Part shown: positions 15,742-61,670 of the stretch, piece by piece
Position numbering within the stretch: the stretch's first letter is position 1
Layout of the letters: each line of letters starts with the position of its first letter
Assembly: GCA_000092065.1 (NCBI GenBank)
Contig: CP000588.1
Source of the DNA: Ostreococcus lucimarinus
Taxonomy: Eukaryota
DNA: 64,000 bases
Strand: one strand, 5' to 3'
Notes under the pieces: model-generated
Databases searched by the model: none
What the model was told of the DNA's origin: nothing
The model's input: only the letters and a program-made list of their open reading frames with translations
Made by a program: the position numbers and the translations under genes

Positions 15742-16156
15742 TTGTTAGGGCAGAGGTCCGATCGGTCGAATTGCGACGAATGCTCCGCGACGAGGCGCGC
15801 GTTTTCGATCTACAATCGCGCCAATACGATCGAAGAGGGTTCTTCTTTCGTTTACCGCGGCCAATCGAAGGAGTGGGCGCGCACGCGTCGATCTAGCGCA
15901 CGATTCAGCCGGCGAATTCGCGATCGGAATTGCCGCGAGGGTTCTAGAGGGAAAATAAGCGCACAGGAATTTTAGCGGTGTCGTTCGTTGGTACAGACGA
16001 GTGTCACACAGCTCGGTACCATCGTGCTGATTGAGACGACGAACATCGTTAAGATGGGGGCTTGTTAAGTTTACAACGCGAATGTTCTACACATAGAAAA
16101 GTAAGAAGTGTGAGACGCTGAGACGTCGGCGACGTCCACAGCCACATATTAGTCTG

Positions 16157-49588: not shown

Positions 49589-52500
49589 CTAACCTCGCGA
49601 CGGCGCGGCCGCTGGGAATACGCGCGTCAGGCGGTAGACTTTCATCGAGACCTCGTTGATCTCGTGCGAACTAGCGCTCCATTTAAATGGGTTCATCATC
49701 TCAGTCGAAACGCGCACGATGCCGCACACGACAAACGTGAGCAAGCCCACGGGCACCGCCACCGCCACGCCGTACGAATGAATAAACGCGAGCGGCGACG
49801 TGAGCACAAAGACATAACAGAGCAAGTACACGGAGTACATGTAGAAGGGCGGGATCGGAGTGCTGACGATCGTTTCGCAGTTTGTCCACGCATCGAGGAT
49901 GCAGTCGATATCGTGGTAGATGCGGTAAAGTCTCTGTTCGTTGTTGACTTGACTCTTTGGGAGCGAACGCATCGCGCGCTTCAATTCGCCGCTGCACTTA
50001 CTGACACGAAACGCAGGCGCGATACCAGCGTAGGCGTTTCGCTGCTCTGCATTCATAAGATCTTTTGTCGATGGAGCGCCAAAGAAATCGTCATCGAGTA
50101 CGGTGTTGGGTGTCAACTCTTCCTTTGGTCGGAAAGTCGAGGGATATCCTACTCGAGACTCTCGAATCGATTGACGAGCGAAAGCCATGAGCGAGTTTAA
50201 CATGCTCAGCATCTTCGCGTGTGCCGCGCAATCTTCGTCAGTTTCAGACGATTGAAATGCAGTGTTCAGTTCAATGACCAAGTCTCTCCCGTAATCGATC
50301 AAGTTGTCCAAATATTCACGAGCGGTGTAGTAGCGCGTGTACGTCAAATTCAGCAAATGGGCGATGCAAAAGCCCAACACTGGGACGGCGATAGTATGAC
50401 CTTCGGGCGTGATCAATGTCTTGCATTGTCCGGTGGTGTAAAGCTCATCTTTGTCACAGACGGCTTCGGATAGGAAGTACAAGCCCATGGCGGCGGCGCA
50501 AGCGGCAAATATGAAAGGAAGCGTCGGCAAGATGAGCGTCCCACGTAGAGACACGAACTCGGTGAAAATACCAAATTTGCCACTCCTGAAGCTTCGTTGC
50601 TTCGGGAACGTCCACCCGGCCGGCATTTCGCGATCATAAGTCCAAGCAGGAGCGACCGCAGTCTGATCGACTTTTTGTCTCACTTCTTCGTAGCACTCCT
50701 TCCCAACGTCTAGGCGTTTTTCCTCGACTCGCTTCACCAAGAGAGAGATTTCCGCTTTGAGCTCATCGCTTTCTGCCAAGCTTTCGTGCGTGTGCGCACA
50801 AGATTTCCACAGAGATTGGCCCATTACGATTAAATCGTTTGAGCACATGACATCGCGCGTGAAAGGCTCTTCAAGGAGACCGGCTATGTCGATCATTCCA
50901 TACAGTGTCAAGGCAAGAATGCCGAGCGGTAGCCACGTCATGTACGTGAAGGCCACGACGATGACGCTTGCGGTCGCAAACATCCACAAAAAGAGTACAA
51001 TGTTGATCAAATGTTTCAACGAGTATGGTGCTCTCGTGTTCCTTGCGCGGGTACAACGAGAAAACGCGTGCAGAGCGGTTTGCATGCTATTCGCCATCAT
51101 CGCTGCCCCACGATTAGTTATGCATCCAGAGCTTCGGGCGGTCTCTACTTCCGCAAGAAGACGAGCGGCGATCGTAGCGACGCGTTCTTCTGAAGACGCG
51201 TCGAACAGTTTGAGGAAACTATTTTTGCCTTCTTCATCGAGAAGCGCACCCAGTAGTGATTCAGCGTCTTCATCGTAAAAGAGAGTGTGGGCGTCGCTCA
51301 GTTTCGTTTTCGTCTCGCCGTGGGCGAGATCCTTATTCAAGCTCTGACGCATGCTTGCAAAAAGTGCACAGCTCAAACGAAGAACTGCATATCGAGCTTT
51401 GCGAACAGCTTTAGCGGAGTTATCTTTGATTGGCTTCCCCGCCCTAGAAAGCTCGCGCAAGTGCGCGCAGGCTTGGATGTTGAGCGTGTACAACGAGTAC
51501 AGGAGATCGTAAATCCCCGTCTTTGCCTCGTAAAATACTCGAAACGCAAAGAAGAATCGATAGACAACCGCAAACATTGTCATACGTCCAATTATAGAAA
51601 CAGCTGCGGGCGCAAACACGACGTCGCACATCCTGTGGTCCGTAACGTCGTCGCCACAAAACTCAAGTTTGTAAAACTGCGCGCCAACGCCTATGAACAT
51701 CATGACGAACATCATCGGCCAAATATGTGGGAATACGGTGTTTCTCAATCGAAACAAGTACGAAAAGTACGACGAAGTCGAATCCACGCCACGTTGACGT
51801 CGTACTGCCTCCCAAACTGTGAGATCTCTCAGGGCTTTGGGGGCGGCCGCGCCGCTCAGAACGAGAGCATCCACGCCCGAGTGTGTTGTTTCTTCAGCAT
51901 CGCCGACGGCGCGCGCACATTTTTCATGAATGGCGATAGTCTCAGTGTACAGTGCCCAGCCAACTTTCGTTAAGTCGTGTTTAGGATCTTCCCAGCCGAA
52001 AGGATCAGCCAACAAACTCCCCAGCTCTGCGATTCCAAATAGCGATAGAGTCACCAACATTGACGGCACGACGGCGAGCCATTTGTACGAGGTGATGAAC
52101 ACAAACGGAGAAGAAAGTGCGAAGAAGAAGACGACAAAGTTCATCAAATGGATGAAAGCAAAAGGCATCGAGCTTGAGACGATTCGTTCAATATCAGCGA
52201 CCGCATTCACGCACGCCTCTATTCGACCGAGCATCTCGAATGCGCTGCGTTCGGAGATGTGTCCGAGGCGACGGCGTTCGTCAATGATGGCGATCATCTT
52301 CGACGCGCAGCACCCAACTCGCGCTCTATAATCACATTTTAAATAGCGAGCTTTTTCAGCATCTGTGAGCATAACCGATAGTGACGGCCAGCCTCGAGGA
52401 TCATCAATCATCTCTTCATCGGTAGGCGACAACTTCTTCAACGTGAAAGGCTCGACGCCGTGGCGACGCTCACGAACGGCTTGCCGCATGAACGCCATAA

Positions 52501-55444
52501 GCACGCATGATAACCGACGAATCTCCGTGACATCATCGTTAATTTCTTGCTCCAGCTCAGGAGATGATCTCCGATTCAGAGATCGCATCATCGTGCACGC
52601 ACCAAGGTTGAGACAACGCAAGCTGTTCACCATCACGCCAACCAAGCCTTTGCCGTCGTAATATCGCGAGTAAGAGAACATAAGCCTGAAAACGAGGGTG
52701 AAGCCGATTATAGAACCGCTCATAACGTGTGCTTTGTCATCAAACGTGAAACTGCATTGCGTCACATTCGAAACCGAACTCCCACACCAATGAATTTTCA
52801 AGAAGTTTGCGAGTACGGATACTGCGCCAGTCAATGCAATTTGAAGCGCAATCTGCGGCACGACTGTGTTTCGCACGTGAAACACGCATGAGACGAAAGA
52901 CCAACCCGTGCGTAGCGCCTGCATGTTCTTTATGGCACCTGTTTTAAATTCTTTCTCGTAGTTTGAGATATTCTTGACGCGGATGGAAGGTGCCGCCAGG
53001 AGTGACTTTTTACTCCGGTTTGCGCCGAGGCTCTCCCTGTAGAGGCCGCCAGCTGTGCTCAAATGATCGCCCAGAATCTTGGCTTCATCCATGAGTTTCA
53101 CCCATGTATCGTCACTGCCTCGCATCTTCATCGCGAACGCACCAAGTCGTTCATGACGAGTAAACATGCGCGAACCCATTCCGCTCAGATCGTGGCGCGG
53201 ACCGGTCCAACTGAACGGCTCCATCATACTTGTGGAAGTCTCGGCGATACCATAAAACGCGAGTGCGACGAGTATCACTGGCACGCTCGTGATCCACTGG
53301 TAGCTCACACTCAAAACAAACGGCATAGTGAAGACATAGAAGAATAGTAAAACTTGCAGCAAGTGTCGAAAACGGTTCGGCACCGGCGTCGACACGACTC
53401 GCATCAAGCCTTGCATCGCCTGCAGCGAGTTGCATACTTTTCGGTAGGCCTCAGCGCTAAAGCGCTCAGTCATAGCGCCTGATCGACCGTATTCTTCAAA
53501 AATTGCGTTTAGTCTCATCCCTACCCACGTCGGGAACGCATGCACGGGTAGAGATTTCAATTCAGGGTGCTCCGATTCTCGAACCAAATCGCAGAGTTTA
53601 CACGCGCCGCCAAACTTGTCCATCGTTAAAATATCATCGAGCTTGACTGTATTTCCCGATGGATCACGACTTATAAGCTCTCGCACGGCGATTCTCGCGA
53701 AGCCATACATGACGTTCGACAAACGCTGCACTTCTCTTGCGTCCGCTTCGACCGCACTCAGGTCGTCATTTTTTGCCGTCGTGAAAATCGCCGAGCACGC
53801 CGTCAACGAACGCAGACTGTTCTGCATACTGACAACCAACTTTTTGGAAGAAATGAAACGCTCGTACCCCCAATCAGTGTTAATGACGAGTAAGAGCGAA
53901 ATAGGCATCGCCAGTATACGATGGGCAGAGAGATCAAACGTCACAAGGCACTGCGACGAGTCAGTGACGTTCCAACCGCACACGAGTATCTTCAGCAACT
54001 GCGCGCCGATACCGACGACGGCCGCGAGGCCAATTTGACGGCCGATGTGAGGAAGCGTAGTCTTTTCCCAAGCAAAGCAATCGATCACGAACCAAAACGG
54101 ATTGCGCCATCTCCGGTAATTCATTGAATCTACCGATAGCGGTTCGTCGTCCACGTCGATGCCGACTACGTCTTTGCTCATCTTGAACGCATCCATCTCC
54201 CGTTCGATTCTTCGAGCTATGACATTCAGGGGGTGAGCCGGAAGCACCCATTTGAATGGATCTTCCAGTGTGCTCGCAATCTCATTGACGCCGTAAAATA
54301 ACCACGCAAGTGTCGCGCTCACGAGCGGCGTTCGCCAATCCATGAGCGAACTGAGCGCAAACGGCGCGGAGAAGATGAACGCGAATAGCAACACCGTCAC
54401 GGTATGAGAGTACTGTTTCGGTGTCGGTGTTTCGATTATCAGCATAGCCTGTCGATAAGCGTCGAGCGCGCGTTGAGACTCGCGAAATGCCTCCATCGCG
54501 GCGCGTTCGCTCAAAACGCCCGCGCGGTGCATGGTTTCGATGCGAGTCAGCGCGTCAATCATAACCGCATCCGGACGATTCTCGACCGCCAACTTCGCGT
54601 ACTCTGTACGTTCGTCACGTTTAGTGAGATTGGAAACGTTCGGAGTGCCGTCGTCATCGCGGTGGAGCAAAGACTCGGTCGAAACGTCGCGCTTGCCGCC
54701 GCGAACGCCGGCGTCGACGACGCCGAATCGCGATTCGCGCAAAGCTTGTCGCATGAACGCGAACGTCAAGTTGCACAATCGACGAATTTCACTCTGAAGC
54801 TCTTCTATCGTCGTCGGCGTATGGTGATCTTTGCTCGAAAACATGGACGCGATCGACCCCGACGCCGGTTCCCGCGCCTCGACGTCCGTCACCGAGGCGA
54901 GATTTCGCAGCGCGTCCTTCACGTCAATCATCGCGAATTTCCCATCCTCGAACCGCCTAAACGCCTGCACCGCGCGAAACACCAGCAAGAACGACAGCAC
55001 CGCCGACACCGCGTAGTGCGCTTCGATCGTAAAAGCGTACCGACACGTCGTCGAGTACCGCTGCGTCTCGTCGCACGCCGACAGTTTCAACCACTGCGCG
55101 CCCGCGCCGACCACTCCCGCCAGCGCGATCTGCGGCGTCACCCTCGACACGCACGCCATCCAGAGCGACACCAAAAACCCGAGCCTCCGCTCGAGATCTC
55201 GCGCGTCGCGCGCGCGTCGCGTCGCCGTCGCGCCCTTCCCGCGTTCGCCCCCTTCCTCGCGCGTCTCGCCGCGTCCAATCCATCGCGTCGTCGCCTCCCC
55301 GTCCCGCGTCGTCGTCGTCGCCGGCGCCGCGTCCCGCACCGCGTCGCGCGCCTCGCCCTCGCGTCCCGTCACCATCGCGATTCGCGTCGTCTCGACGCCG
55401 CGCGTCGTCGCGCGACGTCGACGTTCGTTACCGCGAACGAACAA
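49589..55444 (-). CDS. Single polypeptide of five tandem bestrophin-like (UPF0187/Best anion channel) domains (1951 aa)
   Basis: Five diverged repeats of ~340-400 aa (approx. aa 85-440, 443-842, 843-1221, 1222-1614, 1615-1951). Each has (i) a TM hairpin ending in an R(F/Y)-type motif like bestrophin 'RWW': 'LLVFRAVQAFRRFEDGK', 'LLLVINTDWGYERFISSKK', 'TLVFRLMFSYSRYYDGKG', 'AVVYRFFFAFRVFYEAKTG', 'LLNLTYTRYYTAREYLDN'; (ii) a helix 'MRQA(L/V)RE.R.G' ('FAFMRQALRESRFG', 'GFARIAVRELISRD', 'MAFMRQAVRERRHG', 'FASMRQSLNKDLAHG', 'MAFARQSIRESRVG'); (iii) 'STP(V/I/T)P..(F/Y)' followed by a second hydrophobic pair ending 'EPF/DPF/NPF' ('IETPTPKQYSH..EDPFKW', 'VSTPVPNRFRH..MEPFSW', '..LADPFGW', '..LEEPFTR', 'VSTPIPPFYMY..MNPFKW'). 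No stop codon anywhere in 5856 nt. Confidence 0.8.
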   Translation of the reverse strand: MFVRGNERRRRATTRGVETTRIAMVTGREGEARDAVRDAAPATTTTRDGEATTRWIGRGETREEGGERGKGATATRRARDARDLERRLGFLVSLWMACVSRVTPQIALAGVVGAGAQWLKLSACDETQRYSTTCRYAFTIEAHYAVSAVLSFLLVFRAVQAFRRFEDGKFAMIDVKDALRNLASVTDVEAREPASGSIASMFSSKDHHTPTTIEELQSEIRRLCNLTFAFMRQALRESRFGVVDAGVRGGKRDVSTESLLHRDDDGTPNVSNLTKRDERTEYAKLAVENRPDAVMIDALTRIETMHRAGVLSERAAMEAFRESQRALDAYRQAMLIIETPTPKQYSHTVTVLLFAFIFSAPFALSSLMDWRTPLVSATLAWLFYGVNEIASTLEDPFKWVLPAHPLNVIARRIEREMDAFKMSKDVVGIDVDDEPLSVDSMNYRRWRNPFWFVIDCFAWEKTTLPHIGRQIGLAAVVGIGAQLLKILVCGWNVTDSSQCLVTFDLSAHRILAMPISLLLVINTDWGYERFISSKKLVVSMQNSLRSLTACSAIFTTAKNDDLSAVEADAREVQRLSNVMYGFARIAVRELISRDPSGNTVKLDDILTMDKFGGACKLCDLVRESEHPELKSLPVHAFPTWVGMRLNAIFEEYGRSGAMTERFSAEAYRKVCNSLQAMQGLMRVVSTPVPNRFRHLLQVLLFFYVFTMPFVLSVSYQWITSVPVILVALAFYGIAETSTSMMEPFSWTGPRHDLSGMGSRMFTRHERLGAFAMKMRGSDDTWVKLMDEAKILGDHLSTAGGLYRESLGANRSKKSLLAAPSIRVKNISNYEKEFKTGAIKNMQALRTGWSFVSCVFHVRNTVVPQIALQIALTGAVSVLANFLKIHWCGSSVSNVTQCSFTFDDKAHVMSGSIIGFTLVFRLMFSYSRYYDGKGLVGVMVNSLRCLNLGACTMMRSLNRRSSPELEQEINDDVTEIRRLSCVLMAFMRQAVRERRHGVEPFTLKKLSPTDEEMIDDPRGWPSLSVMLTDAEKARYLKCDYRARVGCCASKMIAIIDERRRLGHISERSAFEMLGRIEACVNAVADIERIVSSSMPFAFIHLMNFVVFFFALSSPFVFITSYKWLAVVPSMLVTLSLFGIAELGSLLADPFGWEDPKHDLTKVGWALYTETIAIHEKCARAVGDAEETTHSGVDALVLSGAAAPKALRDLTVWEAVRRQRGVDSTSSYFSYLFRLRNTVFPHIWPMMFVMMFIGVGAQFYKLEFCGDDVTDHRMCDVVFAPAAVSIIGRMTMFAVVYRFFFAFRVFYEAKTGIYDLLYSLYTLNIQACAHLRELSRAGKPIKDNSAKAVRKARYAVLRLSCALFASMRQSLNKDLAHGETKTKLSDAHTLFYDEDAESLLGALLDEEGKNSFLKLFDASSEERVATIAARLLAEVETARSSGCITNRGAAMMANSMQTALHAFSRCTRARNTRAPYSLKHLINIVLFLWMFATASVIVVAFTYMTWLPLGILALTLYGMIDIAGLLEEPFTRDVMCSNDLIVMGQSLWKSCAHTHESLAESDELKAEISLLVKRVEEKRLDVGKECYEEVRQKVDQTAVAPAWTYDREMPAGWTFPKQRSFRSGKFGIFTEFVSLRGTLILPTLPFIFAACAAAMGLYFLSEAVCDKDELYTTGQCKTLITPEGHTIAVPVLGFCIAHLLNLTYTRYYTAREYLDNLIDYGRDLVIELNTAFQSSETDEDCAAHAKMLSMLNSLMAFARQSIRESRVGYPSTFRPKEELTPNTVLDDDFFGAPSTKDLMNAEQRNAYAGIAPAFRVSKCSGELKRAMRSLPKSQVNNEQRLYRIYHDIDCILDAWTNCETIVSTPIPPFYMYSVYLLCYVFVLTSPLAFIHSYGVAVAVPVGLLTFVVCGIVRVSTEMMNPFKWSASSHEINEVSMKVYRLTRVFPAAAPSRG

Positions 55445-55529: not shown

Positions 55530-55857
55530 TTGCTTCGCCCGCGTCGCCGTCGCGACGCGCGTCGTCGCCGTCGCCGCGATGTGCCGCGGCGTCGTTCGCG
55601 CGTCGCGACGGCGCGGGCGTTACGGCGCGCGCGTCGGGAGACGAGCGGACGCGACAGCGCGCCGCGCGCGATGCCCGCGCGCGCGCCGACGCGCGACGGG
55701 AAATTCGCGCGATCGCGCGGCGCGTACACCGCGCGCCGGCGCGCGGCGACGCTCGAGCGACAGCGCGCGGCGAAGCGCGACGCGCTCGCCGTCGCGCGCG
55801 CCGTCGCGCGCGTCGCGACGCGACGCGACGGCGCGACGCGCGACGCGCGCGGTGCGC

Positions 55858-55897
<40 letters not shown>

Positions 55898-57083
55898 CGA
55901 TGGCCGCGGCGCGACGGACGCGGCGCGCGACGACGACGCGAGAGACGCGAGAGACGACGAAGACGCGAGAGACGACGCGAGAGACGACGCGGACGTCGTC
56001 GCGCAGCCGGAGTGGATGTGGGACGACGCGCCGGATGATTTTCGCGAGCGGTGGTACGCGCGCGCGCGACCGCGCGGGACGCGGTGCGTGGTGGTGGCGA
56101 CGCGGGGACGAACGACGGCGCGGAGCGCGCGGGACGGGACGACGCTGCGGACGTTTCAATCGGGATTGCCGGGAGGGAGCGCGCGGACGAGTCGAGGGCG
56201 GAGCGGGGAGTGCTTTTGCATACTCGATTGCGTGTTCGCGGAGGATGAGCGGGCGAGGAATGAGACGGGCGGGCGAGGGAAGGAGGCGGCGACGGCGAAC
56301 GCGCGAGGCGCGTATCACGTGTTGGACGTCATGGCTTGGAACGGGGCGGCGATGTACGATTGCGACGCGGAGTTTCGGTTTTTCTGGGCGCACACGCGAT
56401 TGACGGAGGAGTGCGACGCGTGTGAGGCGCCGAACGCGGCGCTGGGGAGAGACTTCGCGTTCGTCCCGACGCCGTGGTACGAGTGCGACGTCGACGGCGT
56501 CTCGAGAGCGTACGCGGGAGATATCGGTACCGAGATCGATGGGTTGCTGTTTTACCACAAAGAGGCGGCGTACGAAAATGGCGCGACGCCGCTCGTGTTG
56601 GCGTGGCGCGATGCGAAGACGTCGGCGTTTTTCACGCGCGACGAAGGCGCGGCGACGGTGCTCTCGCGCGCGGGCGTCGTCCTCCCGGGAGACCCCACCG
56701 CGGCGCAAATCATCACCTTGACGAAGTCGAGCGACGGAAGATTCTTCGTCACCGGTGACGATGAGCCAATGGTCATCGCCGCCGTGGATGCGGTACCGCG
56801 GGCGTCGGAGAAAGTCGCCGCGCCCGCGACGCTCGAGCCGGGCCGCTCGGGCCGTTTTCTCGTCGGTCCGTCGGGATTCGACGTCGACGTCGAAACCGCG
56901 CACGTGCGAAGCGCTGACTTGCACTATCTCGGTCCGAAACCACCGAAGCGACGCGGTGTCGATCGCGCGGACGCGCTTTCGAAGATCCTCTTCAACGCTC
57001 GAGCGCGAACGGCGCCGCTCGGCATCGACGCTCTGTTGTCCGCCGCCGCCGCGGACGCCCCCATGACCGATCACGCGCGTTGA
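55530..57083 (+). CDS. SNUPN: Snurportin-1 (m3G-cap snRNP import adaptor) homolog
   Basis: Cap-binding domain closely matches snurportin by recall: 'RCVVVATRGRTTARSARDGTTLRTFQSGLPGG...CILDCVF...YHVLDVMAWNGAAMYDCDAEFRFFWAHTRL...[21 protein letters not shown]' (human '[89 protein letters not shown]'). N-terminal Arg-rich IBB-like region and poly-Asp tract. An alternative start is ATG 55671. Confidence 0.75.
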
Positions 57084-57253
57084 ACACGTCGACGATCCGA
57101 CACAGTCGTACTAGTTTTAGCTTGTCATCGCTAGCGTTCATCTTAGGGAAACGTCGCGCTCGCGTCGCCTTCTGCAAAACTCGTCGCGCTCGCGTCCCGC
57201 TCGCGCTCCCGCGAACGCCTCTCCCGCGCGCGTCGCCGCACTTCGCCGCGCCC

Positions 57254-59317
57254 ATGGGTTCGTCCACGCCGAAGAAGGAGAAGAAAGAAAAGAAGGAGAA
57301 GAAAGAGAAGCGCTCGAGCGAGGACAAATCGCCGGGCGGCGGCGATGAGCGGTCGAAAAAGCAAAAAGTGCAGGACGATGGCGGCGGCGGCGAACCCACG
57401 CGCGTGCGCGTCGTTGGACTCACGAAGACCGCGAACGCGGACGGCGTGGGCGCGTTTCTGGGTTTGGACGCCGCGAGCGTCGTGGTCGGGATGTGGGGAA
57501 CGCACGGGAAAGGCCCGAAGCCACCGGGAGGGCAAGCGTTCGCGACGACGGCGTCCCGAAGCGCGGCGGAGAAGCTCGTCGAGGCGTTCGATGGAAAAAC
57601 GCTGGATGGAGTCGAGTTGAAGGTGATAGTGGATGATGGAGACGTCGCGGTGCACTCGAATGGGGGAGTGACGCCCGGGAAGGACGCGAAGCCGACGATA
57701 AAGACCATGGAGGTGCCGCGACCGCCGTTGTTCGGCGGCGGCGGCGGCGCGGCGGCGAATGTATCCGTGTCAAACGCCGATACCGCGCCTTCGATGTCGC
57801 CGCATGATGTACGAGCGGACGATTGGTCGTGTGGGGCGTGTGGGTGTAGTAACTTTGCACGGCGAACGTCGTGCTTTAGGTGTGCGGCGCCGAAGAGCGC
57901 GACGACGAGCGGGGCGCCGGCGACTGCGGTGAACACCGCGGCGGCGCGCGCGTCAGCGCAAGGAAACGCACAAGATGGGTATGAGGTGTTTTTGAAGTAT
58001 TTGCCGCACAGCGCGAACGAAGAGGAGGTGACCAAGTATTTCGCCGACTGCGGCGCCATGGTCAGTCAGGCGCGTCTGTTGCGCGACCCGCAGTCGGGTC
58101 AACCCAAAGGAGCGGGATTCATCACGTTCGTAGACGAAGCGGGCAGAAACGAGGCGTTGAAGCGCGACGGTGCGCGATTCGGCGGTCGCAACGTGTCCGT
58201 GACGGTGGCGAAAAAGAGCACGTTCGGCGTGCGCGCCACGGATCAGGCGTACGGAACGCACACGCCGGCGATGTTAGCGGAAACCATCGCGGCTCTCGTC
58301 GCCCCTGATCGCTCGGGCGTGTACGTGGACGGAACTTTCGGACGTGGAGGTCACACGCGCGGAATTCTCGCCGCGCTTTCCGCCGAGGGTCGCTTGCACG
58401 CGTTCGACATGGATCCAGAGGCGATCAAGGTGGGCAAGGAGCTCGAAAGAGAAGACTCCAGGTTTAAGATTCACCACGCCCCGTTCGGATGCATGGCGGA
58501 CGTTTTGAGACCGCTCGGCGTGAAACCGTCTGGAGTATTCTTAGATTTAGGGATTTCTTCGCCCCAATTCGACGACTCGTCGCGAGGGTTCCGACCCGAG
58601 CAAGACGGTCCGCTCGACTTGCGCTTTGACGTCGAGCGCGGCGTCCCCGCGAGCGAGTATCTCAGACTCGTTTCGCGCGAAGAACTTCGACGGGTGATTC
58701 ACGAATACGGTGAGACCACTGATCCAATCGCCGCCCGTCGAATCACGGACGCCATCGTGCTCGCGCGTGAAAACGGTTCGCTCCCGAGCACGACGAAGGA
58801 ATTCGCCGCCCTCGTCGCCAAGGCCAAAGGCAAAGAATACCAGATGATGCATCCCGCCAAGCTCACGTTCCAAGCTTTACGCATCGCGCTGAACCAAGAG
58901 TTTGACGAGATGCGACGCGGTATGCACGCCGCATTCGATATCATGCCCGAACACGGACGTTTGGGCATCCTCACCTGGAAGCACAGCGAGTGCGCCATCG
59001 TCGTCGACTTTTTCCGCGACTACGAAGTCATCCGCGACGACTTCCCCCTCTACGAGTGGGCGCTCAAGAACCACGCCGATAAGTGCTCGAAGAAGCTTGA
59101 ACGCAAGTGGGGCATGCACATGGACGACGCTCAGCGCCCGAGCGAGCAAGAGATGCGTCAAAACAGCCGTTCGCGTTCCGCGACGCTTCACGTCCTCCGC
59201 AAGCGCGAAGCCGTGCGCATCGCCGACTTGGAGCGCCTCTCGTACAAGCTCAAGGGTTGGGGCAAGATCCCAGACGCGAAACCGGCGCCACCGGTGACGT
59301 TCAACTACAAGATATAG
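57254..59317 (+). CDS. Fusion protein: RRM - RanBP2-type zinc finger - RRM - 16S rRNA m4C methyltransferase RsmH/MraW (METTL15-like)
   Basis: N-terminal K/E-rich tail 'PKKEKKEKKEKKEKR'. RRM-like 'RVRVVGLT..AEKLVEAFDGKTLDGVELKV'. ZnF_RBZ 'WSCGACGCSNFARRTSCFRCAAPK'. RRM 'YEVFLKYLPHSANEEEVTKYFADCG...KGAGFITFVDEAGRNEAL'. RsmH motifs 'VYVDGTFGRGGHTRGIL', 'DMDPEAI', 'GVFLDLGISSPQFDDSSRGF', 'DGPLDLRFD'. Start set at 'MGSSTPKKEKK' (57254) inside ORF 57080..59317. Confidence 0.75.
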   Translation: MGSSTPKKEKKEKKEKKEKRSSEDKSPGGGDERSKKQKVQDDGGGGEPTRVRVVGLTKTANADGVGAFLGLDAASVVVGMWGTHGKGPKPPGGQAFATTASRSAAEKLVEAFDGKTLDGVELKVIVDDGDVAVHSNGGVTPGKDAKPTIKTMEVPRPPLFGGGGGAAANVSVSNADTAPSMSPHDVRADDWSCGACGCSNFARRTSCFRCAAPKSATTSGAPATAVNTAAARASAQGNAQDGYEVFLKYLPHSANEEEVTKYFADCGAMVSQARLLRDPQSGQPKGAGFITFVDEAGRNEALKRDGARFGGRNVSVTVAKKSTFGVRATDQAYGTHTPAMLAETIAALVAPDRSGVYVDGTFGRGGHTRGILAALSAEGRLHAFDMDPEAIKVGKELEREDSRFKIHHAPFGCMADVLRPLGVKPSGVFLDLGISSPQFDDSSRGFRPEQDGPLDLRFDVERGVPASEYLRLVSREELRRVIHEYGETTDPIAARRITDAIVLARENGSLPSTTKEFAALVAKAKGKEYQMMHPAKLTFQALRIALNQEFDEMRRGMHAAFDIMPEHGRLGILTWKHSECAIVVDFFRDYEVIRDDFPLYEWALKNHADKCSKKLERKWGMHMDDAQRPSEQEMRQNSRSRSATLHVLRKREAVRIADLERLSYKLKGWGKIPDAKPAPPVTFNYKI

Positions 59318-59414: not shown

Positions 59415-59786
59415 ATGCGCGTCGGCGTCCCGTCGACGCGCGCGCCGTCGACGCGCCCATCGCCATCGTTCGCGCCGTCCGCGTCGTCGTCGTCCGCGCG
59501 CGCGTCGCGCCCCGCGCGCGCGAACACCGTCTCGACACTCTTCGCAACCGGCGACGACGCGCGCGGCGACGCGTCGCGTCGCGCCGATCCCGCGCCCGAG
59601 ACGCGGTGTCCGGTGTGCCGCGGCACGGGCTGGAAGCCGTGCGGGCAGTGCGAGGGCACGGGGATCAACCCGAGCGACGCGTTCGGGGGCAAGTTTAAAG
59701 CCGGCGACGCGTGTTGGCTGTGCGAGGGCAAAAACGGCGCGCGGACGATGTGCGGGAACTGCGTCGACCTCACGGACACGTTTTGA
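59415..59786 (+). CDS. DnaJ-like zinc-finger (CxxCxGxG) protein, BSD2-like, with Ser/Ala/Arg-rich presequence
   Basis: Four Cys pairs in the C-terminal 60 aa: 'CPVCRGTG', 'CGQCEGTG', 'CWLCEG', 'CGNC'. This is the DnaJ zinc-finger-only architecture of the plastid BSD2/LQY1-type family. N-terminal 70 aa are transit-peptide-like. Confidence 0.6.
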   Translation: MRVGVPSTRAPSTRPSPSFAPSASSSSARASRPARANTVSTLFATGDDARGDASRRADPAPETRCPVCRGTGWKPCGQCEGTGINPSDAFGGKFKAGDACWLCEGKNGARTMCGNCVDLTDTF

Positions 59787-59858: not shown

Positions 59859-60587
59859 CTACTCGTCTCTCTCTCTCGCGCGCGCGCGGCGTCGACCCGC
59901 CTCGCGACCGTTGACGTACTCGGCGGTTTCGACGAGCTCGCGCAGAAACGCGTCGACGCCCGACGCCCCGTCGTCGTTCTCCAACACCTCCAGCATGAAC
60001 TCCCGCTGACGCCGCGTGACGAACGCGATGCACTTCTCGGGACATCGCTCGCTCGCGCACCACTCGGCGTACGCCAGCGCCGACGTCTCGTCCGCGCTCG
60101 CGTCCCCGAAGTCATCCCGCTCGATCCATCGCGCCTTCCCGGTCGTCGCGTCCGCGACGAACGACCTCGGCGCCGCCTCGACGCAGCTCGACGCGCACGC
60201 CGCCGCGCCACGACACCGCGTCGCCGCGACGAATCCGTGTCGCGCGCCGTCGAACGTCCTTGCGAGCGTCTTCGCCGCGAACGCGTCGCCGTCGCCGTCG
60301 CTCGCGCTCGCGAGCGTCCCGTCGCGCGCTGACGCCATCGCGCGCTCGTACGCCGCGCGCACCGCGAGCGCGCGCGCGGTCGACCCTCGCGCGGCGTCCG
60401 GGTGCGCGTCGCGCATCGTCGCGCGGTACGCGTCGCGCACGTCTCGCTCGGTGAGCGTCGCGGCGTCGCGCGCGTCGAGCCCGAGGCGTCGCAGCGCCGA
60501 CGCCGCGTCGTCCGAGGACGACGCCGCGACGCGCGACGCGCGGCGCGGCGGCGGAAAACGCGTCGGCGCGAATCCGAGCGCGCGCAT
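59859..60587 (-). CDS. J-domain protein with C-terminal Cys-rich (possibly Fe-S/ferredoxin-like) region
   Basis: J domain with HPD: 'DVRDAYRATMRDAHPDAARGS'. Cys clusters 'CRGAAACASSC' and 'CASERCPEKC' resemble, loosely, plant J-like/ferredoxin fusion proteins. Not canonical CxxCxxCxxxCP. Confidence 0.45.
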   Translation of the reverse strand: MRALGFAPTRFPPPRRASRVAASSSDDAASALRRLGLDARDAATLTERDVRDAYRATMRDAHPDAARGSTARALAVRAAYERAMASARDGTLASASDGDGDAFAAKTLARTFDGARHGFVAATRCRGAAACASSCVEAAPRSFVADATTGKARWIERDDFGDASADETSALAYAEWCASERCPEKCIAFVTRRQREFMLEVLENDDGASGVDAFLRELVETAEYVNGREAGRRRARARERDE

Positions 60588-60659
60588 CGAAGTGCGGCGC
60601 GGATTCGACGCAAAACGCGACGCGACGCGGCGCTAAAGCGCGTCGCGAGTCCCGCGAAC

Positions 60660-61670
60660 ATGCGCGGCGCGTCGCGTCGCGCCGCCGCGGTCGTCGCGCG
60701 CGCGCCGGGGCGCGCGGCGTCCCAGTCGCGCGCGCGTCGAATCCGCGAATTGCACTTTTCGGGCGACGAAAACGCCGCGCACCGCGCGCCGCGCGCGCGA
60801 ACGGCGCGCGCGAGCGCGCGAGACGGTCGACGCGCGCACGCCGCCGATGCGGACGGCGTCGAGCGCGTGTCGAGCGCGGAGAACGCGACGGTGAAGCACT
60901 TTGTAAAGTTGTGCAAGAGCAAGGCGTACCGGGACGAGCGCGGGACGGTGGTGCTGTCGTCGAGCGTGCTCATGCGCGAGTGCTTCGGGCGCGCGGGAGA
61001 GGGGCGCGAAGCGAAAACGCTGTTCGTCGCGGATTGGGCGGAGGCGCCGGCGGGAATTCGGGCGAAGAGGGTGATTCGGGCGCCGGCGAGCGTGCTGAAA
61101 AAGTGCGCGGGGGTGAACAACGCGGACGGGTTGGACGCCGTGGGGGAGTTCGCGTCGCCGGTGATCATGAACGCGCGCGAGTTCGTCGATGGTGCGAAAC
61201 AGAGGGACGTCGTGCGCGTGCTCGCGGTGGAGGGGGTGCAAGATCCCGGGAATTTGGGAACGCTCACGCGCACGGCGGTGGCGTTCGGTTGGGACACCGT
61301 GGCTTTACTTCCGGGAACGTGCGATCCGTTCAACGACAAGGCGATGCGCGCGGCGCGTGGGGCGACGTTTCGAGTCGATTTCGTCGCCTTCGATTCGTTC
61401 GACGATCTCGCGAGCGCTGGAAGAGAATTGAACATGGAGTTGTACGCCGCCGAGCCGAGCGCGAAAGAAGACGTCGACCCCGAACGGGCAAAGGCTGTGG
61501 CGAAGGCGTGTCTGGTGCTCGGTACCGAAGGTCAAGGATTGAGCGACGATGCCTTGCGCGCGTGCAAGCCGGTGGCGATTCCGATGTCGGGGGAGATGGA
61601 AAGCTTAAACGTCGGCATCGCGGGTGGCGTTCTGATGTATTTGATGCAGGCTACTACGAAGACCCGATGA
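60660..61670 (+). CDS. SpoU/TrmH-family (SPOUT) RNA 2'-O-ribose methyltransferase, probable organellar rRNA methyltransferase
   Basis: 'VLAVEGVQDPGNLGTLTRTAVAFGWD', 'LVLGTEGQGLS', 'VAIPMSGEMESLNVGIAGGVLMY' are the three SPOUT motifs. Arg/Ala-rich N-terminus. Start at 'MRGASRR' (60660) within ORF 60402..61670. Confidence 0.75.
   Translation: MRGASRRAAAVVARAPGRAASQSRARRIRELHFSGDENAAHRAPRARTARASARDGRRAHAADADGVERVSSAENATVKHFVKLCKSKAYRDERGTVVLSSSVLMRECFGRAGEGREAKTLFVADWAEAPAGIRAKRVIRAPASVLKKCAGVNNADGLDAVGEFASPVIMNAREFVDGAKQRDVVRVLAVEGVQDPGNLGTLTRTAVAFGWDTVALLPGTCDPFNDKAMRAARGATFRVDFVAFDSFDDLASAGRELNMELYAAEPSAKEDVDPERAKAVAKACLVLGTEGQGLSDDALRACKPVAIPMSGEMESLNVGIAGGVLMYLMQATTKTR

What the first reader, a model, noticed from the sequence alone, without database searches (positions are those of the whole stretch)
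57254..59317. RNA-binding module (RRM - RanBP2 ZnF - RRM) fused to the 16S rRNA m4C1402 methyltransferase RsmH/MraW
RsmH/MraW (METTL15 in mitochondria, a CMAL-like protein in plastids) is normally a stand-alone methyltransferase that acts on the small-subunit rRNA of bacteria-derived ribosomes. Here it sits as the C-terminal domain after a lysine/glutamate-rich tail, two RRM-like domains and a RanBP2-type zinc finger, all in one ORF. I have not seen this architecture. It suggests a dedicated RNA-recruitment arm for an organellar rRNA methyltransferase, or a moonlighting function.
Basis: partly seen in the sequence, partly recalled or inferred. Interest (0 to 1): 0.55.

Follow-up and report, generated by a model that had tools for sequence, protein, structure and literature searches.

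The report
RNA-binding arm fused to RsmH methyltransferase
This Ostreococcus gene joins a bacterial-type ribosomal RNA cytosine methyltransferase to eukaryotic RNA-binding domains, belongs to an undescribed family found across marine algae, and has no organelle-targeting signal, so it may methylate the cell's own cytosolic ribosome rather than the chloroplast or mitochondrial one.

Summary
57254..59317(+) is one intron-less 687-aa ORF with this layout: K/E-rich tail, divergent RRM, RanBP2-type zinc finger, canonical RRM, complete RsmH domain (Pfam 2e-65; TIGR00006 equivalog 208.6 bits against a cut-off of 154.3).

The first RRM is below Pfam threshold in this sequence. Profile-profile comparison (95%), Pfam hits in orthologues and a confident AlphaFold model whose PDB neighbours are all RRMs show that it is an RRM.

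All segments are under purifying selection, and no internal Met could start a second gene.

The architecture is not unique to this gene. RRM welded to the RsmH N-terminus defines a discrete eukaryotic clade (54-85% identity in the enzyme domain). Named members are green algae, haptophytes and dinoflagellates, and several come from transcriptome ORFs. I found no paper describing the clade. The extra RRM plus zinc finger is found only in Mamiellophyceae.

The organellar reading is weakly supported. Of 89 complete homologues, 34 start with the RRM and 44 have highly charged NLS-like extensions. None shows a consistent transit or signal peptide.

The most likely function is a nuclear or nucleolar m4C RNA methyltransferase. 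The prime candidate target is the C1402-equivalent of cytosolic 18S rRNA, a modification reported in Leishmania and Entamoeba ribosomes. Target and location are inferred, not shown.

The parts
57254..57394 (+). Start codon and disordered K/E-rich, NLS-like tail (aa 1-47; KKEKKEKKEKKEK and SKKQK)
   Evidence: Translation. 13 K and 7 E, with five K[KR]x[KR] matches. Start Met and KKEKK repeat are conserved from Ostreococcus to Bathycoccus. pLDDT below 50. dN/dS 0.21 against L003. No ATG in 57084-57253.
57395..57637 (+). Divergent RRM (RRM1, aa 48-128) with an Ostreococcus-specific loop insertion (aa 82-90)
   Evidence: Pfam sub-threshold here, but 9 of 15 orthologues hit RRM_1. hhalign 95.3% against the family RRM2. 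AF2 beta-alpha-beta-beta-alpha-beta fold with pLDDT above 90. Foldseek top-50 hits are all RRMs. dN/dS 0.23.
57638..57811 (+). Disordered G/P/A-rich linker (aa 129-186)
   Evidence: pLDDT below 50. Highest dN/dS of the ORF at 0.47, but still coding.
57812..57898 (+). RanBP2-type C4 zinc finger of the ssRNA-binding class (aa 187-215; DW-C-x2-C-x3-NFARR-x2-C-x2-C)
   Evidence: Pfam 28.7 bits, above GA 27. Best PDB matches are RBM10 ZnF (1e-8), RBM5, ZNF265/ZRANB2, FUS and TAF15. D190, W191, A202, R203 and R204 are invariant, and C193, C196, N200, F201 and C207 nearly invariant, among the 16 Mamiellales sequences. dN/dS 0.04.
57899..57979 (+). Linker carrying the conserved N-A-A-x-R...QG-x-x-x-EGYE lead-in to RRM2 (aa 216-242)
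   Evidence: Alignment A1. A related 'NAAG..EGYE' lead-in sits at the N-terminus of non-Mamiellales members.
57980..58213 (+). Canonical RRM (RRM2, aa 243-320; RNP2 VFLKYL, RNP1 KGAGFITF)
   Evidence: Pfam RRM_1 E 2.9e-13. pLDDT above 90. Present in nearly all clade members. dN/dS 0.06.
58214..58255 (+). Short conserved junction welding RRM2 to the RsmH N-terminus (aa 321-334; KSTFGVRATDQAYG)
   Evidence: Conserved across the 16 Mamiellales sequences (S322, F324, G325, R327, T329, Q331 and G334 invariant). Contains no Met. The E. coli RsmH alignment starts right after it.
58256..59203 (+). Complete RsmH/MraW m4C methyltransferase domain (aa 335-650) with intact SAM and catalytic motifs: DGTFGRGGH 359-367, FDMD 384-387, DLGISSPQFD 431-440
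   Evidence: Pfam 2e-65. TIGR00006 208.6 bits, above 154.3. phmmer to E. coli RsmH 3tka, 187 bits. Foldseek 3tka TMt 0.91, rmsd 2.6. Motif residues are invariant in 97 sequences. dN/dS 0.05.
59204..59317 (+). Clade-specific C-terminal helix and tail (aa 651-687; LE..(A/S)YK.(L)(K/G)W) plus the stop codon
   Evidence: Absent from bacterial RsmH alignments, which end at aa 650. Conserved in the clade: E660 and W669 are at least 90% conserved. AF2 helix 656-667.

Best explanation
This is one nuclear, intron-less Ostreococcus gene encoding a 687-aa multidomain RNA methyltransferase. It belongs to a conserved eukaryotic (algal) clade in which an RRM is fused directly to the N-terminus of a catalytically intact RsmH-type N4-cytosine methyltransferase. 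In Mamiellophyceae the arm is extended by a K/E-rich NLS-like tail, a divergent RRM and a GGU-class RanBP2 zinc finger.

Shown: the ORF, all five modules, purifying selection on each, conservation of the fusion across phyla, intact SAM and catalytic motifs, an RsmH fold, and the absence of any N-terminal organelle-targeting sequence.

Inferred: the protein stays in the nucleo-cytoplasm, probably the nucleolus given the KKE-repeat tail. The RRM/ZnF arm holds single-stranded RNA so that the RsmH domain can N4-methylate a specific cytidine. The most likely target is the universally conserved C1402-equivalent in helix 44 of the cytosolic 18S rRNA, giving the bacterial-type m4C(m) decoding-centre mark reported by cryo-EM in Leishmania and Entamoeba cytosolic ribosomes.
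For: Single gene:
- The ORF is continuous.
- There is no ATG in the 170-nt intergenic region.
- dN/dS is 0.04-0.47 in every segment against an 81%-identical orthologue, with conserved synteny.
- No Met lies between aa 181, 269 and 340.

Domains.

Intact enzyme:
- D359, T361, G363, R364, G366, H367, F384, D385, D387, D431, G433 and I434-Q438 are invariant in 97 sequences.
- The model matches E. coli RsmH with TMt 0.91.

Conserved clade:
- 120 listed homologues mostly carry PF00076+PF01795. They include Bathycoccus, Prymnesium, Symbiodinium and MMETSP/TRINITY complete ORFs.
- There is a discrete similarity gap: 54-85% identity inside the clade, against at most 45% for dinoflagellate paralogues and 38-43% for bacterial-length RsmH.
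- Further named members are Chlamydomonas sp. UWO241, Cymbomonas, Tisochrysis and Polarella.

Not organellar:
- Of 89 complete homologues, 34 begin with the RRM within 30 aa and 44 have charged extensions with at least 3 acidic residues in the first 30 aa. Most of the remaining 11 are over-extended gene calls.
- K-rich C-tails occur in P0020 and P0042.
- The K/E tail is conserved from the start Met.

Precedent for the target:
- m4Cm2059, equivalent to E. coli 1402, in Leishmania cytosolic 18S (PMC5693986; also cited in PMC6821322).
- m4Cm1805 modelled in the Entamoeba ribosome (bioRxiv 10.1101/2024.04.29.591517).

Other points:
- The ZnF belongs to the class that binds GGU/GGN ssRNA (PMC6384913).
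- Established knowledge: the sequence around C1402 (GUACACACCGCCCGUC) is identical in bacterial, organellar and eukaryotic cytosolic SSU rRNA. The catalytic domain therefore cannot by itself discriminate, and location decides the substrate.
Against: There is no experimental localisation, no transcript map for Ostreococcus and no modification data for any alga.

Targeting was judged by inspection and simple composition counts, not by a trained predictor. Mamiellales transit peptides can be short and atypical.

Every named clade member so far is a plastid-bearing alga. That could point to a plastid-linked role, although the sampling is biased towards marine phytoplankton.

I could not establish whether Ostreococcus has a second, organelle-type RsmH. 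If it has none, an organellar role becomes more attractive.

No kinetoplastid or Entamoeba member of this clade was seen, so the link to the reported cytosolic m4Cm is by analogy only.

The ZnF and RRM resemble those of pre-mRNA splicing factors (RBM5/RBM10, ZRANB2), which fits non-ribosomal targets equally well.
Confidence: 0.45

Rival explanations
1. Organellar enzyme. The protein would be imported into the chloroplast or mitochondrion and methylate C1402 of the organellar 16S-type rRNA, as CMAL and METTL15 do. The RRM/ZnF arm would be an organelle-style RNA recruitment module, comparable to plant ORRM and OZ proteins.
For: The catalytic domain passes the bacterial RsmH equivalog model, and that family's known eukaryotic members are organellar (PMC7102989; PMC6821322). 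RRM and RanBP2 ZnF domains do occur in plant organelles: cS22/PSRP2 hits, and OZ1/OZ2 papers listed. All named clade members are photosynthetic algae. No second RsmH of Ostreococcus was identified here.
Against: The N-terminus is K/E-rich, with 6 acidic residues in the first 30, and is conserved from the first Met. There is no upstream ATG. Haptophyte and dinoflagellate members start with the RRM 5-15 aa after Met and have no signal peptide, although their secondary plastids require one. This includes TRINITY complete ORFs. The sequence is far from METTL15 (102-111 bits against 187 for E. coli RsmH). No named plant CMAL appears in the homologue lists. The representative list carries no names, and the cluster look-ups I made on it returned no plant protein.
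Confidence: 0.2
2. Nuclear or cytoplasmic m4C writer for non-ribosomal RNA (pre-mRNA, snRNA, tRNA or other). The RBM5/RBM10-like RRM-ZnF-RRM arm would pick GGU-containing single-stranded sites and bring the RsmH domain to a new substrate.
For: The ZnF's nearest solved relatives are splicing factors (RBM10, RBM5, ZRANB2, FUS, TAF15). RBM5 aligns across ZnF plus RRM2 (9ze0_A, query 187-296 to chain 181-285). Relatives carry varied RNA-binding or RNA-modifying partners: KH, zf-CCHC, a PF04013 SPOUT domain and PseudoU_synth_2 within the clade, and WW in the dinoflagellate paralogues. That suggests a flexible targeting platform. There are no targeting peptides.
Against: The RsmH domain is extremely conserved (dN/dS 0.05; 54-85% identity across phyla), including its inserted helical domain (aa 441-563 in the AF2 model). 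That fits an invariant structured substrate such as h44 better than diverse mRNAs. From my own knowledge, known RsmH and METTL15 enzymes need assembled small subunits. I found no paper in the held library reporting an RsmH-type m4C enzyme acting on eukaryotic mRNA or snRNA; my searches were aimed at rRNA and the fusion, not at this question. The core of the clade has only one RRM, so the ZnF is a lineage-specific add-on.
Confidence: 0.2
3. Catalysis-independent assembly or RNA-chaperone factor. The RsmH fold would be kept as a binding module, as proposed for the trypanosome mt-SAF14 and for the catalysis-independent role of METTL15, and the methyl transfer itself would be unimportant.
For: A paper listed (PMC11197891, abstract only) reports that METTL15 catalytic activity is dispensable for mitoribosome biogenesis. 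mt-SAF14 is an MraW-like assembly factor found in PDB hits.
Against: All SAM-binding and catalytic motif residues are invariant in 97 clade sequences, and dN/dS of the domain is 0.05. Nothing indicates loss of activity. mt-SAF14 is very divergent (41 bits), unlike this protein.
Confidence: 0.08
4. Gene-model artefact. Two adjacent genes, an RNA-binding protein and an RsmH, would happen to lie in the same frame in a GC-rich genome where long spurious ORFs are common.
For: The window is 63-68% GC here and is full of long spurious ORFs on both strands. The public O. lucimarinus annotation holds only a 254-aa partial model for this gene. No Ostreococcus transcript was obtained.
Against: The frame stays open in all Ostreococcus, Bathycoccus and Micromonas-like orthologues down to about 50% identity. 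The RRM2-RsmH junction is conserved and has no Met, and the first Met after aa 181 is inside RRM2. Every segment, linkers included, shows dN/dS below 0.5 at pS 0.3-0.6. Transcriptome-derived complete ORFs from other algae carry RRM and RsmH on one mRNA.
Confidence: 0.02

Closest known systems
Bacterial RsmH/MraW (E. coli RsmH, PDB 3TKA; TIGR00006, PF01795)
   Same: Full-length catalytic domain with the same two-lobed fold (TMt 0.91, rmsd 2.6, 35% identity in the structural alignment). Same SAM and catalytic motifs. Passes the equivalog cut-off. The nearest named bacterial sequences are gamma-proteobacterial: E. coli, and Xanthomonas and Lysobacter in a search seeded with clade member P0104.
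   Different: The bacterial enzyme is a stand-alone protein of about 310 aa encoded in the mraZ-rsmH-ftsL operon and acts on 30S subunits. This protein carries a 334-aa eukaryote-type RNA-binding extension and a 37-aa clade-specific C-terminal tail. It is encoded by a eukaryotic nuclear gene.
METTL15 (mitochondrial 12S rRNA m4C839 methyltransferase)
   Same: A eukaryotic nuclear-encoded RsmH homologue with the same fold (Foldseek TMt 0.77-0.83).
   Different: METTL15 has a mitochondrial presequence and no RRM or ZnF. Sequence similarity is much lower (102-111 bits against 187 for E. coli RsmH). The protein here has a K/E-rich N-terminus instead of a presequence.
CMAL (Arabidopsis AT5G10910, chloroplast 16S m4C1352 methyltransferase)
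   Same: An RsmH homologue of the green lineage. It is the reference for the role of RsmH in plants (PMC7102989).
   Different: CMAL is 434 aa with a predicted chloroplast transit peptide, and the paper describes no RNA-binding domains. No named CMAL-like plant protein appeared in the homologue lists, and the unnamed representative list gave none in the clusters I looked up. Orthology was not resolved.
RBM5/RBM10 (and plant SUA) RRM1-ZnF-RRM2 module; ZRANB2 zinc fingers
   Same: Same order of RRM, RanBP2 ZnF and RRM. The ZnF is most similar to RBM10, RBM5 and ZRANB2 fingers (E 1e-8 to 1e-4), and NFARRTSC is identical to ZNF265/ZRANB2 finger 1. RBM5 aligns over ZnF plus RRM2. This class binds GGU/GGN ssRNA (PMC6384913).
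   Different: No OCRE, C2H2 finger or G-patch is present (no Pfam hits). RRM1 lacks most RNP aromatic residues. The linker between RRM1 and the ZnF is 58 aa and disordered. The module is fused to an enzyme. This is a resemblance in layout, not demonstrated common descent.
Unidentified writer of cytosolic 18S m4Cm in Leishmania (m4Cm2059) and Entamoeba (m4Cm1805)
   Same: These are reported cases where a 'bacteria-specific' RsmH-type mark sits in a eukaryotic cytosolic ribosome. A non-organellar RsmH is exactly what such a mark requires.
   Different: No clade member from kinetoplastids or Entamoeba was seen in my searches. The connection is functional analogy only.

Membership tests
RsmH/MraW 16S rRNA (cytosine1402-N4)-methyltransferase (PF01795, TIGR00006) | End-to-end match to the family models above their curated cut-offs | tested here: met
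   PF01795: 221.7 bits (GA 27), profile positions 3-308 of 309. TIGR00006 equivalog: 208.6 bits against 154.3, positions 6-309 of 310.
RsmH/MraW 16S rRNA (cytosine1402-N4)-methyltransferase (PF01795, TIGR00006) | SAM-binding G-x-G-G-H loop, acidic D-x-D motif and the D-L-G-(V/I)-S-S-P-Q catalytic loop | tested here: met
   DGTFGRGGH 359-367, FDMD 384-387 and DLGISSPQFD 431-440. These align to the same E. coli RsmH motifs and are invariant in 97 clade sequences.
RsmH/MraW 16S rRNA (cytosine1402-N4)-methyltransferase (PF01795, TIGR00006) | Rossmann methyltransferase lobe with an inserted helical domain | tested here: met
   AF2 pLDDT above 90 over aa 335-670. Foldseek: 3tka TMt 0.91, 1wg8 0.90, 1n2x 0.88.
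RsmH/MraW 16S rRNA (cytosine1402-N4)-methyltransferase (PF01795, TIGR00006) | N4-methylation of C1402 (or its equivalent) in small-subunit rRNA | not testable with these tools
   Needs an enzyme assay, or RNA mass spectrometry or cryo-EM of Ostreococcus ribosomes.
Organellar RsmH homologues (METTL15, CMAL) | N-terminal mitochondrial presequence or chloroplast transit peptide | tested here: not met
   The first 30 aa hold 6 acidic and 11 basic residues in a KKE repeat. The start is conserved. There is no upstream ATG. The family census shows no consistent targeting sequence. The assessment is by inspection and composition, not by a trained predictor.
Organellar RsmH homologues (METTL15, CMAL) | Orthology to METTL15 or CMAL | tested here: inconclusive
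   METTL15 scores 102-111 bits against 187 for E. coli RsmH. No named CMAL was seen in the homologue lists. The representative list is unnamed. No explicit phylogeny with CMAL or cyanobacterial sequences could be built.
RRM (PF00076) | beta-alpha-beta-beta-alpha-beta fold with RNP1/RNP2, match above the Pfam threshold | tested here: met
   RRM2: 49.9 bits (GA 20.7), RNP2 VFLKYL, RNP1 KGAGFITF. RRM1: below threshold by Pfam (11.7 bits), but RRM by hhalign 95.3%, by orthologue Pfam hits and by Foldseek. RRM1's RNP motifs are degenerate.
RanBP2-type zinc finger, ssRNA-binding subclass (ZRANB2/RBM5/RBM10/FUS type) | W-x-C-x2-C-x10-C-x2-C with the D-W, N-F and R-R RNA-contact residues | tested here: met
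   DDWSCGACGCSNFARRTSCFRC, aa 189-210. Pfam 28.7 bits, above 27. Best PDB matches are RNA-binding fingers, with only weak matches to Ran- or ubiquitin-binding fingers. RNA binding itself was not tested.
RBM5/RBM10/SUA splicing-factor family | RRM1-ZnF-RRM2 followed by OCRE, a C2H2 finger and a G-patch | tested here: not met
   Only the RRM-ZnF-RRM order is shared. No OCRE or G-patch hit appears in Pfam, and the C-terminal half is RsmH. This protein is not a member.

The most novel reading that the evidence does not exclude
The RRM-RsmH clade would be the missing writer of a bacterial-type m4C at the decoding centre (h44, C1402-equivalent) of cytosolic 18S rRNA in marine algae. A methyltransferase of bacterial ancestry would have been re-routed from organelle or bacterial ribosomes to the eukaryotic 40S by acquiring an RRM (plus a zinc finger in Mamiellophyceae) and nuclear-type charged tails. 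That would make cytosolic ribosomes of major phytoplankton groups chemically 'bacteria-like' at the P-site. It would also provide the first candidate gene family for the m4Cm reported in Leishmania and Entamoeba cytosolic ribosomes.
Probability: 0.33. Interest if true: 0.78.

Novelty: new variant of a known kind. Interest (0 to 1): 0.6.

Why it matters
RsmH-type m4C at the P-site is treated as a bacterial and organellar mark. Two cryo-EM reports place it in cytosolic ribosomes of protists, but the papers I read name no enzyme for it.

A conserved, catalytically intact RsmH clade that lacks organelle-targeting signals and is welded to eukaryotic RNA-binding domains gives a concrete, testable candidate. 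It occurs in globally abundant picophytoplankton, haptophytes and dinoflagellates, and Ostreococcus tauri is genetically tractable.

If the target is 18S rRNA, this changes the picture of how uniform eukaryotic decoding-centre chemistry is. It is also relevant to aminoglycoside selectivity. If the target is another RNA, it would be a new eukaryotic m4C writer.

There is a practical annotation point as well. The public Ostreococcus lucimarinus model is a 254-aa fragment, and the Bathycoccus model lacks part of the zinc finger, so the architecture is hidden in reference proteomes.

Tried and rejected
1. Scan of genome contigs (GTDB) with the enzyme domain, to find the closest bacteria. The peptide patterns were too clade-specific, and only one Rhodococcus locus at 32% identity came back. 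It says nothing about origin.

2. Search with the N-terminal module alone (aa 44-321), to find a donor protein such as an RBM5/SUA-like gene. Low-complexity words swamped the word filter, and only four fragments of the same orthologues came back.

3. Attempts to find a plant or algal CMAL-type sequence among the representative hits, so as to ask whether Mamiellales have a second, organellar RsmH. The long or 420-450-aa hits that carried names were dinoflagellate paralogues (Polarella, Polykrikos, Gymnodinium, Prorocentrum) and the rest were unnamed metagenome proteins. The question stays open.

4. Attempts to obtain transcript evidence in Mamiellales. The contigs carrying P0001, P0002 and P0015 are metagenomic. 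The Micromonas-like contig L005 breaks off in what looks like an intron, followed by CCCTAAA repeats.

5. The CMAL paper's supplementary phylogeny is not held in the library.

6. I considered that the in-frame 58 codons upstream (57080-57253, from a TTG) might encode a transit peptide, since the stretch is R/S/A-rich. I rejected this. It contains no ATG, it begins inside the stop region of the upstream snurportin gene, and its length differs from that of the L002 and L003 upstream regions, the L003 sequence being visibly unrelated.

7. I considered N-myristoylation of the MG start. I rejected it from my own knowledge of the consensus, because position 6 is Pro.

8. Literature searches for the fusion (RsmH+RRM; MraW+'RNA recognition motif'; a dinoflagellate RBP review) found no description.


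Full report
**What is in the sequence**

The ATG at 57254 opens a frame of 687 codons that ends at the stop codon 59315-59317. The mechanical ORF reaches back to a TTG at 57080, but that stretch starts inside the stop region of the upstream gene and contains no ATG. The upstream gene (55530-57083, same strand) encodes a snurportin m3G-cap-binding domain protein. The downstream gene (59415-59786) encodes a BSD2-type cysteine-rich protein. The intergenic spacers are about 170 and 100 nt, as expected for a compact picoalgal genome.

The nearest database protein is 98% identical. Its 90% cluster contains Ostreococcus lucimarinus XP_001419106.1, annotated only as a 254-aa 'predicted protein, partial'. 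The window is therefore from Ostreococcus, in or near O. lucimarinus.

**Domains**

- **Pfam hits.** Zn_ribbon_RanBP at aa 187-215 (28.7 bits, GA 27). RRM_1 at aa 245-314 (E 2.9e-13). Methyltransf_5 at aa 335-650, covering essentially the whole model (E 2e-65).
- **RsmH equivalog.** NCBIfam TIGR00006 is passed, 208.6 bits against a cut-off of 154.3.
- **Catalytic motifs.** The SAM loop DGTFGRGGH, the FDMD motif and the DLGISSPQFD loop are all present. They align to the same motifs of E. coli RsmH and are invariant in a 97-sequence family alignment.
- **Full-length AlphaFold model.** Mean pLDDT is 80.5. Four well-folded units are separated by disordered linkers at aa 1-44, 132-187, 216-236 and 322-327.
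- **Fold of the enzyme part.** It superposes on E. coli RsmH with TMt 0.91 and rmsd 2.6 A.
- **First RRM-like region (aa 48-128).** This is the only weak call. Pfam gives 11.7 bits, E 0.25, for this sequence. However, 9 of 15 orthologous segments hit RRM_1. A profile of the orthologues matches a profile of the family's second RRM at 95.3% probability. The isolated domain folds with pLDDT 84 into beta-alpha-beta-beta-alpha-beta, and its 50 best PDB neighbours are all RRMs. It is a divergent RRM that has lost most RNP aromatic residues.
- **Zinc finger.** It belongs to the RNA-binding RanBP2 subclass. Its best solved relatives are the fingers of RBM10, RBM5, ZNF265/ZRANB2, FUS and TAF15. It shares the D-W, N-F and R-R contact residues, and NFARRTSC is identical to ZNF265/ZRANB2 finger 1. 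Fingers of this class bind GGU/GGN in single-stranded RNA (PMC6384913).

**One gene, not two**

- The reading frame stays open through all modules in every Ostreococcus-, Bathycoccus- and Micromonas-like orthologue, down to about 50% identity.
- Against an orthologue with 81% protein identity and conserved synteny (bestrophin, snurportin, this gene, BSD2; L003), synonymous divergence is 0.3-0.6.
- dN/dS by segment:

| Segment | dN/dS |
|---|---|
| Zinc finger | 0.04 |
| RsmH domain | 0.05 |
| RRM2 | 0.06 |
| RRM2-RsmH junction | 0.12 |
| K/E tail | 0.21 |
| RRM1 | 0.23 |
| Internal linkers | 0.28-0.47 |
| C-terminal tail | 0.44 |

- The 14-residue junction between RRM2 and the first RsmH motif is conserved. 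No Met lies between residues 181 and 269, or between 269 and 340, so a downstream gene would have no start codon.
- I could not obtain a transcript from Ostreococcus itself, because the contigs I recovered are metagenomic. Transcriptome-derived complete ORFs (TRINITY and MMETSP) from other algae do carry the RRM and RsmH on one mRNA.

**The architecture is a family trait**

- The homologue search returned 120 listed proteins. Most carry PF00076 plus PF01795 and are 46-62% identical to the query over the RRM-RsmH part. They include Bathycoccus prasinos, Prymnesium parvum, Tisochrysis lutea, Symbiodinium spp. and many transcriptome ORFs.
- A second search seeded with a divergent member added Chlamydomonas sp. 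UWO241, Cymbomonas tetramitiformis and Polarella glacialis.
- An exhaustive HMMER scan of 1.84 billion representatives with the enzyme domain alone shows three tiers with a clear gap:
  - the clade itself, at 54-85% identity;
  - long multidomain dinoflagellate paralogues (fused to WW, SH3 or RanBP2 domains), at 33-45%;
  - ordinary 310-aa bacterial RsmH, at 38-43%.
- The first named bacteria are gamma-proteobacteria (Xanthomonas and Lysobacter; E. coli is the best PDB hit).
- Within the clade the N-terminal arm is variable. There may be one RRM only, extra RRMs, KH plus ZnF (a Micromonas-like sequence), zf-CCHC plus a PF04013 SPOUT domain, or a pseudouridine synthase.
- The K/E tail, divergent RRM and RanBP2 ZnF extension is restricted to Mamiellophyceae.
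- I found no paper in the held library that describes an RRM-RsmH or RRM-MraW fusion.

**Where it probably works**

The sequence argues against that.
- The conserved initiator Met is followed directly by KKEKKEKKEKKEK. The first 30 residues hold 6 acidic and 11 basic residues, with five K[KR]x[KR] matches in the tail.
- Among 89 complete homologues, 34 begin with the RRM within 30 residues of the Met. Another 44 have long, highly charged K/E/R-rich extensions. Most of the other 11 are gene calls extended upstream of the conserved start.
- Members from haptophytes and dinoflagellates, whose plastid proteins need a signal peptide, start 'M..(K)(N/D)AAG..EGYE(I/V)F', straight into the RRM.
- Several members have lysine-rich C-tails.
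- From established knowledge: transit peptides and presequences are poor in acidic residues, and KKE/D repeats are typical of nucleolar proteins such as Nop56, Nop58 and dyskerin.
- I therefore infer a nucleo-cytoplasmic, probably nucleolar, location. This is an inference from sequence, not a measurement.

**What it probably does**

- The catalytic domain is an intact, strongly constrained RsmH, so N4-methylation of a cytidine is the expected chemistry.
- From established knowledge: the local sequence around C1402 (GUACACACCGCCCGUC, the 'universal' 1392-1406 site) is identical in bacterial, organellar and cytosolic small-subunit rRNAs. Location rather than the active site would therefore determine which ribosome is modified.
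- m4Cm at exactly this position has been reported by cryo-EM and mass spectrometry in the cytosolic 18S rRNA of Leishmania (m4Cm2059; PMC5693986; noted again in PMC6821322). It has also been modelled in Entamoeba (m4Cm1805; preprint).
- A non-organellar RsmH is what such a mark needs.
- My best explanation is that the RRM (with the zinc finger and second RRM in Mamiellophyceae) tethers the enzyme to single-stranded (pre-)rRNA or to a pre-40S particle, and that the RsmH domain methylates the h44 cytidine of 18S rRNA.
- My confidence by step:
  - about 0.95 for the gene and its architecture;
  - about 0.7 for a non-organellar location;
  - about 0.35-0.45 for 18S rRNA as the target.

**Rivals**

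1. **An organellar role (0.2).** It is kept alive by three facts. All named clade members are plastid-bearing algae. RRM and RanBP2 domains do occur in plant organelles. I could not show that Ostreococcus has a separate organellar RsmH.
2. **A non-ribosomal nuclear target (0.2).** The RBM5/RBM10/ZRANB2-like finger and the layout similarity to RBM5 suggest it. The extreme conservation of the enzyme domain argues for an invariant structured substrate instead.
3. **A catalysis-independent assembly factor (0.08).** This is unlikely because every catalytic residue is invariant.
4. **A two-gene artefact (0.02).** The conservation data contradict it.

**Comparison with known systems**

This protein is a member of the RsmH family by every sequence and fold criterion tested. 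It is not a typical METTL15 or CMAL: it has no targeting peptide, its similarity to METTL15 is much lower, and its orthology to CMAL is unresolved. It resembles RBM5/RBM10 only in the RRM-ZnF-RRM order and lacks their OCRE and G-patch, so it is not a member of that family. I classify it as a new variant of a known kind: an RsmH re-equipped with eukaryotic RNA-binding modules, representing a conserved but undescribed clade.

**Limits**

- No localisation data, transcript map or modification data were available.
- The origin of the clade and its relation to CMAL were not resolved, because the searches return few named sequences and I had no CMAL or cyanobacterial sequence to add.
- Targeting was assessed by inspection and composition only.
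- The link to the Leishmania and Entamoeba marks is by analogy.

Noticed in passing
window 6001-16000 and 50001-54000: Two stretches of about 50-53% GC lie inside a window that is otherwise 56-68% GC. The second one lies within the giant minus-strand ORF. From my own knowledge, such low-GC blocks are reminiscent of the atypical 'outlier' chromosome regions of Mamiellales.
   Followed up: no
window 49589-55444 (-): An uninterrupted ORF of 1951 aa has a Bestrophin_2 domain matched in five stretches (E 4e-117). The orthologue in L003 is called at 1927 aa. That is unusually large for a bestrophin-type channel protein.
   Followed up: no
window 60402-61670 (+): A SpoU/TrmH-class RNA 2'-O-methyltransferase gene lies two to three genes downstream of the RsmH fusion, and the linkage is kept in L003. 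In bacteria C1402 receives both an N4-methyl and a 2'-O-methyl, the latter from RsmI, which is a different fold. The proximity may be coincidence.
   Followed up: partly
window 55530-57083 (+), 59415-59786 (+) and 59859-60587 (-): The neighbours are a snurportin-1 m3G-cap-binding domain protein with a long poly-Asp run, a BSD2-type cysteine-rich (DnaJ zinc-finger-like) protein, and a 242-aa ORF with no Pfam hit. The order is conserved in two other Ostreococcus-like contigs.
   Followed up: partly
public annotations: XP_001419106.1 (O. lucimarinus) and P0018 (Bathycoccus prasinos): The reference O. lucimarinus model for this gene is a 254-aa partial protein. The NCBI Bathycoccus model lacks about 34 residues, including half of the zinc finger, compared with open metagenomic ORFs that are otherwise nearly identical. 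These are probably spurious in-frame introns, so the full architecture is hidden in reference proteomes.
   Followed up: partly
P0209, P0217, P0227, P0240, P0265, P0270 (dinoflagellates: Polarella, Polykrikos, Gymnodinium): A second tier of eukaryotic RsmH paralogues, 450-1057 aa long, is fused to WW, SH3 or RanBP2-type domains. One has a C-terminal RanBP2-like finger. RsmH has evidently been combined repeatedly with eukaryotic interaction modules in dinoflagellates.
   Followed up: partly
L005 2290-2631 (Micromonas-like homologue P0065): This homologue has a KH domain between the divergent RRM and the zinc finger. Homology breaks at a GT directly after '...AAKGK'. The contig then runs into GATCCCCT and CCCTAAA (telomere-like) repeats. 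This could be an intron or introner element, a subtelomeric position or a chimeric assembly.
   Followed up: partly
L004 58-144, also P0010/P0012/P0015/P0025 (Bathycoccus-like): Gene callers start these orthologues at an upstream in-frame ATG-ATG, which adds a hydrophobic 29-aa leader (MMIIAPPPVVSFFALLFPSFAHALIRHKK) ahead of the conserved MGDTTKRK start. It is probably 5'-UTR read in frame. If it were translated, it would look like a signal or anchor sequence.
   Followed up: no
window 56992-58059 (-) and other antisense ORFs: Long ORFs of 355, 170 and 146 aa lie antisense to the gene and have Arg/Pro/Ala-rich translations. They are the usual by-product of 63-68% GC and should not be annotated as genes.
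   Followed up: no
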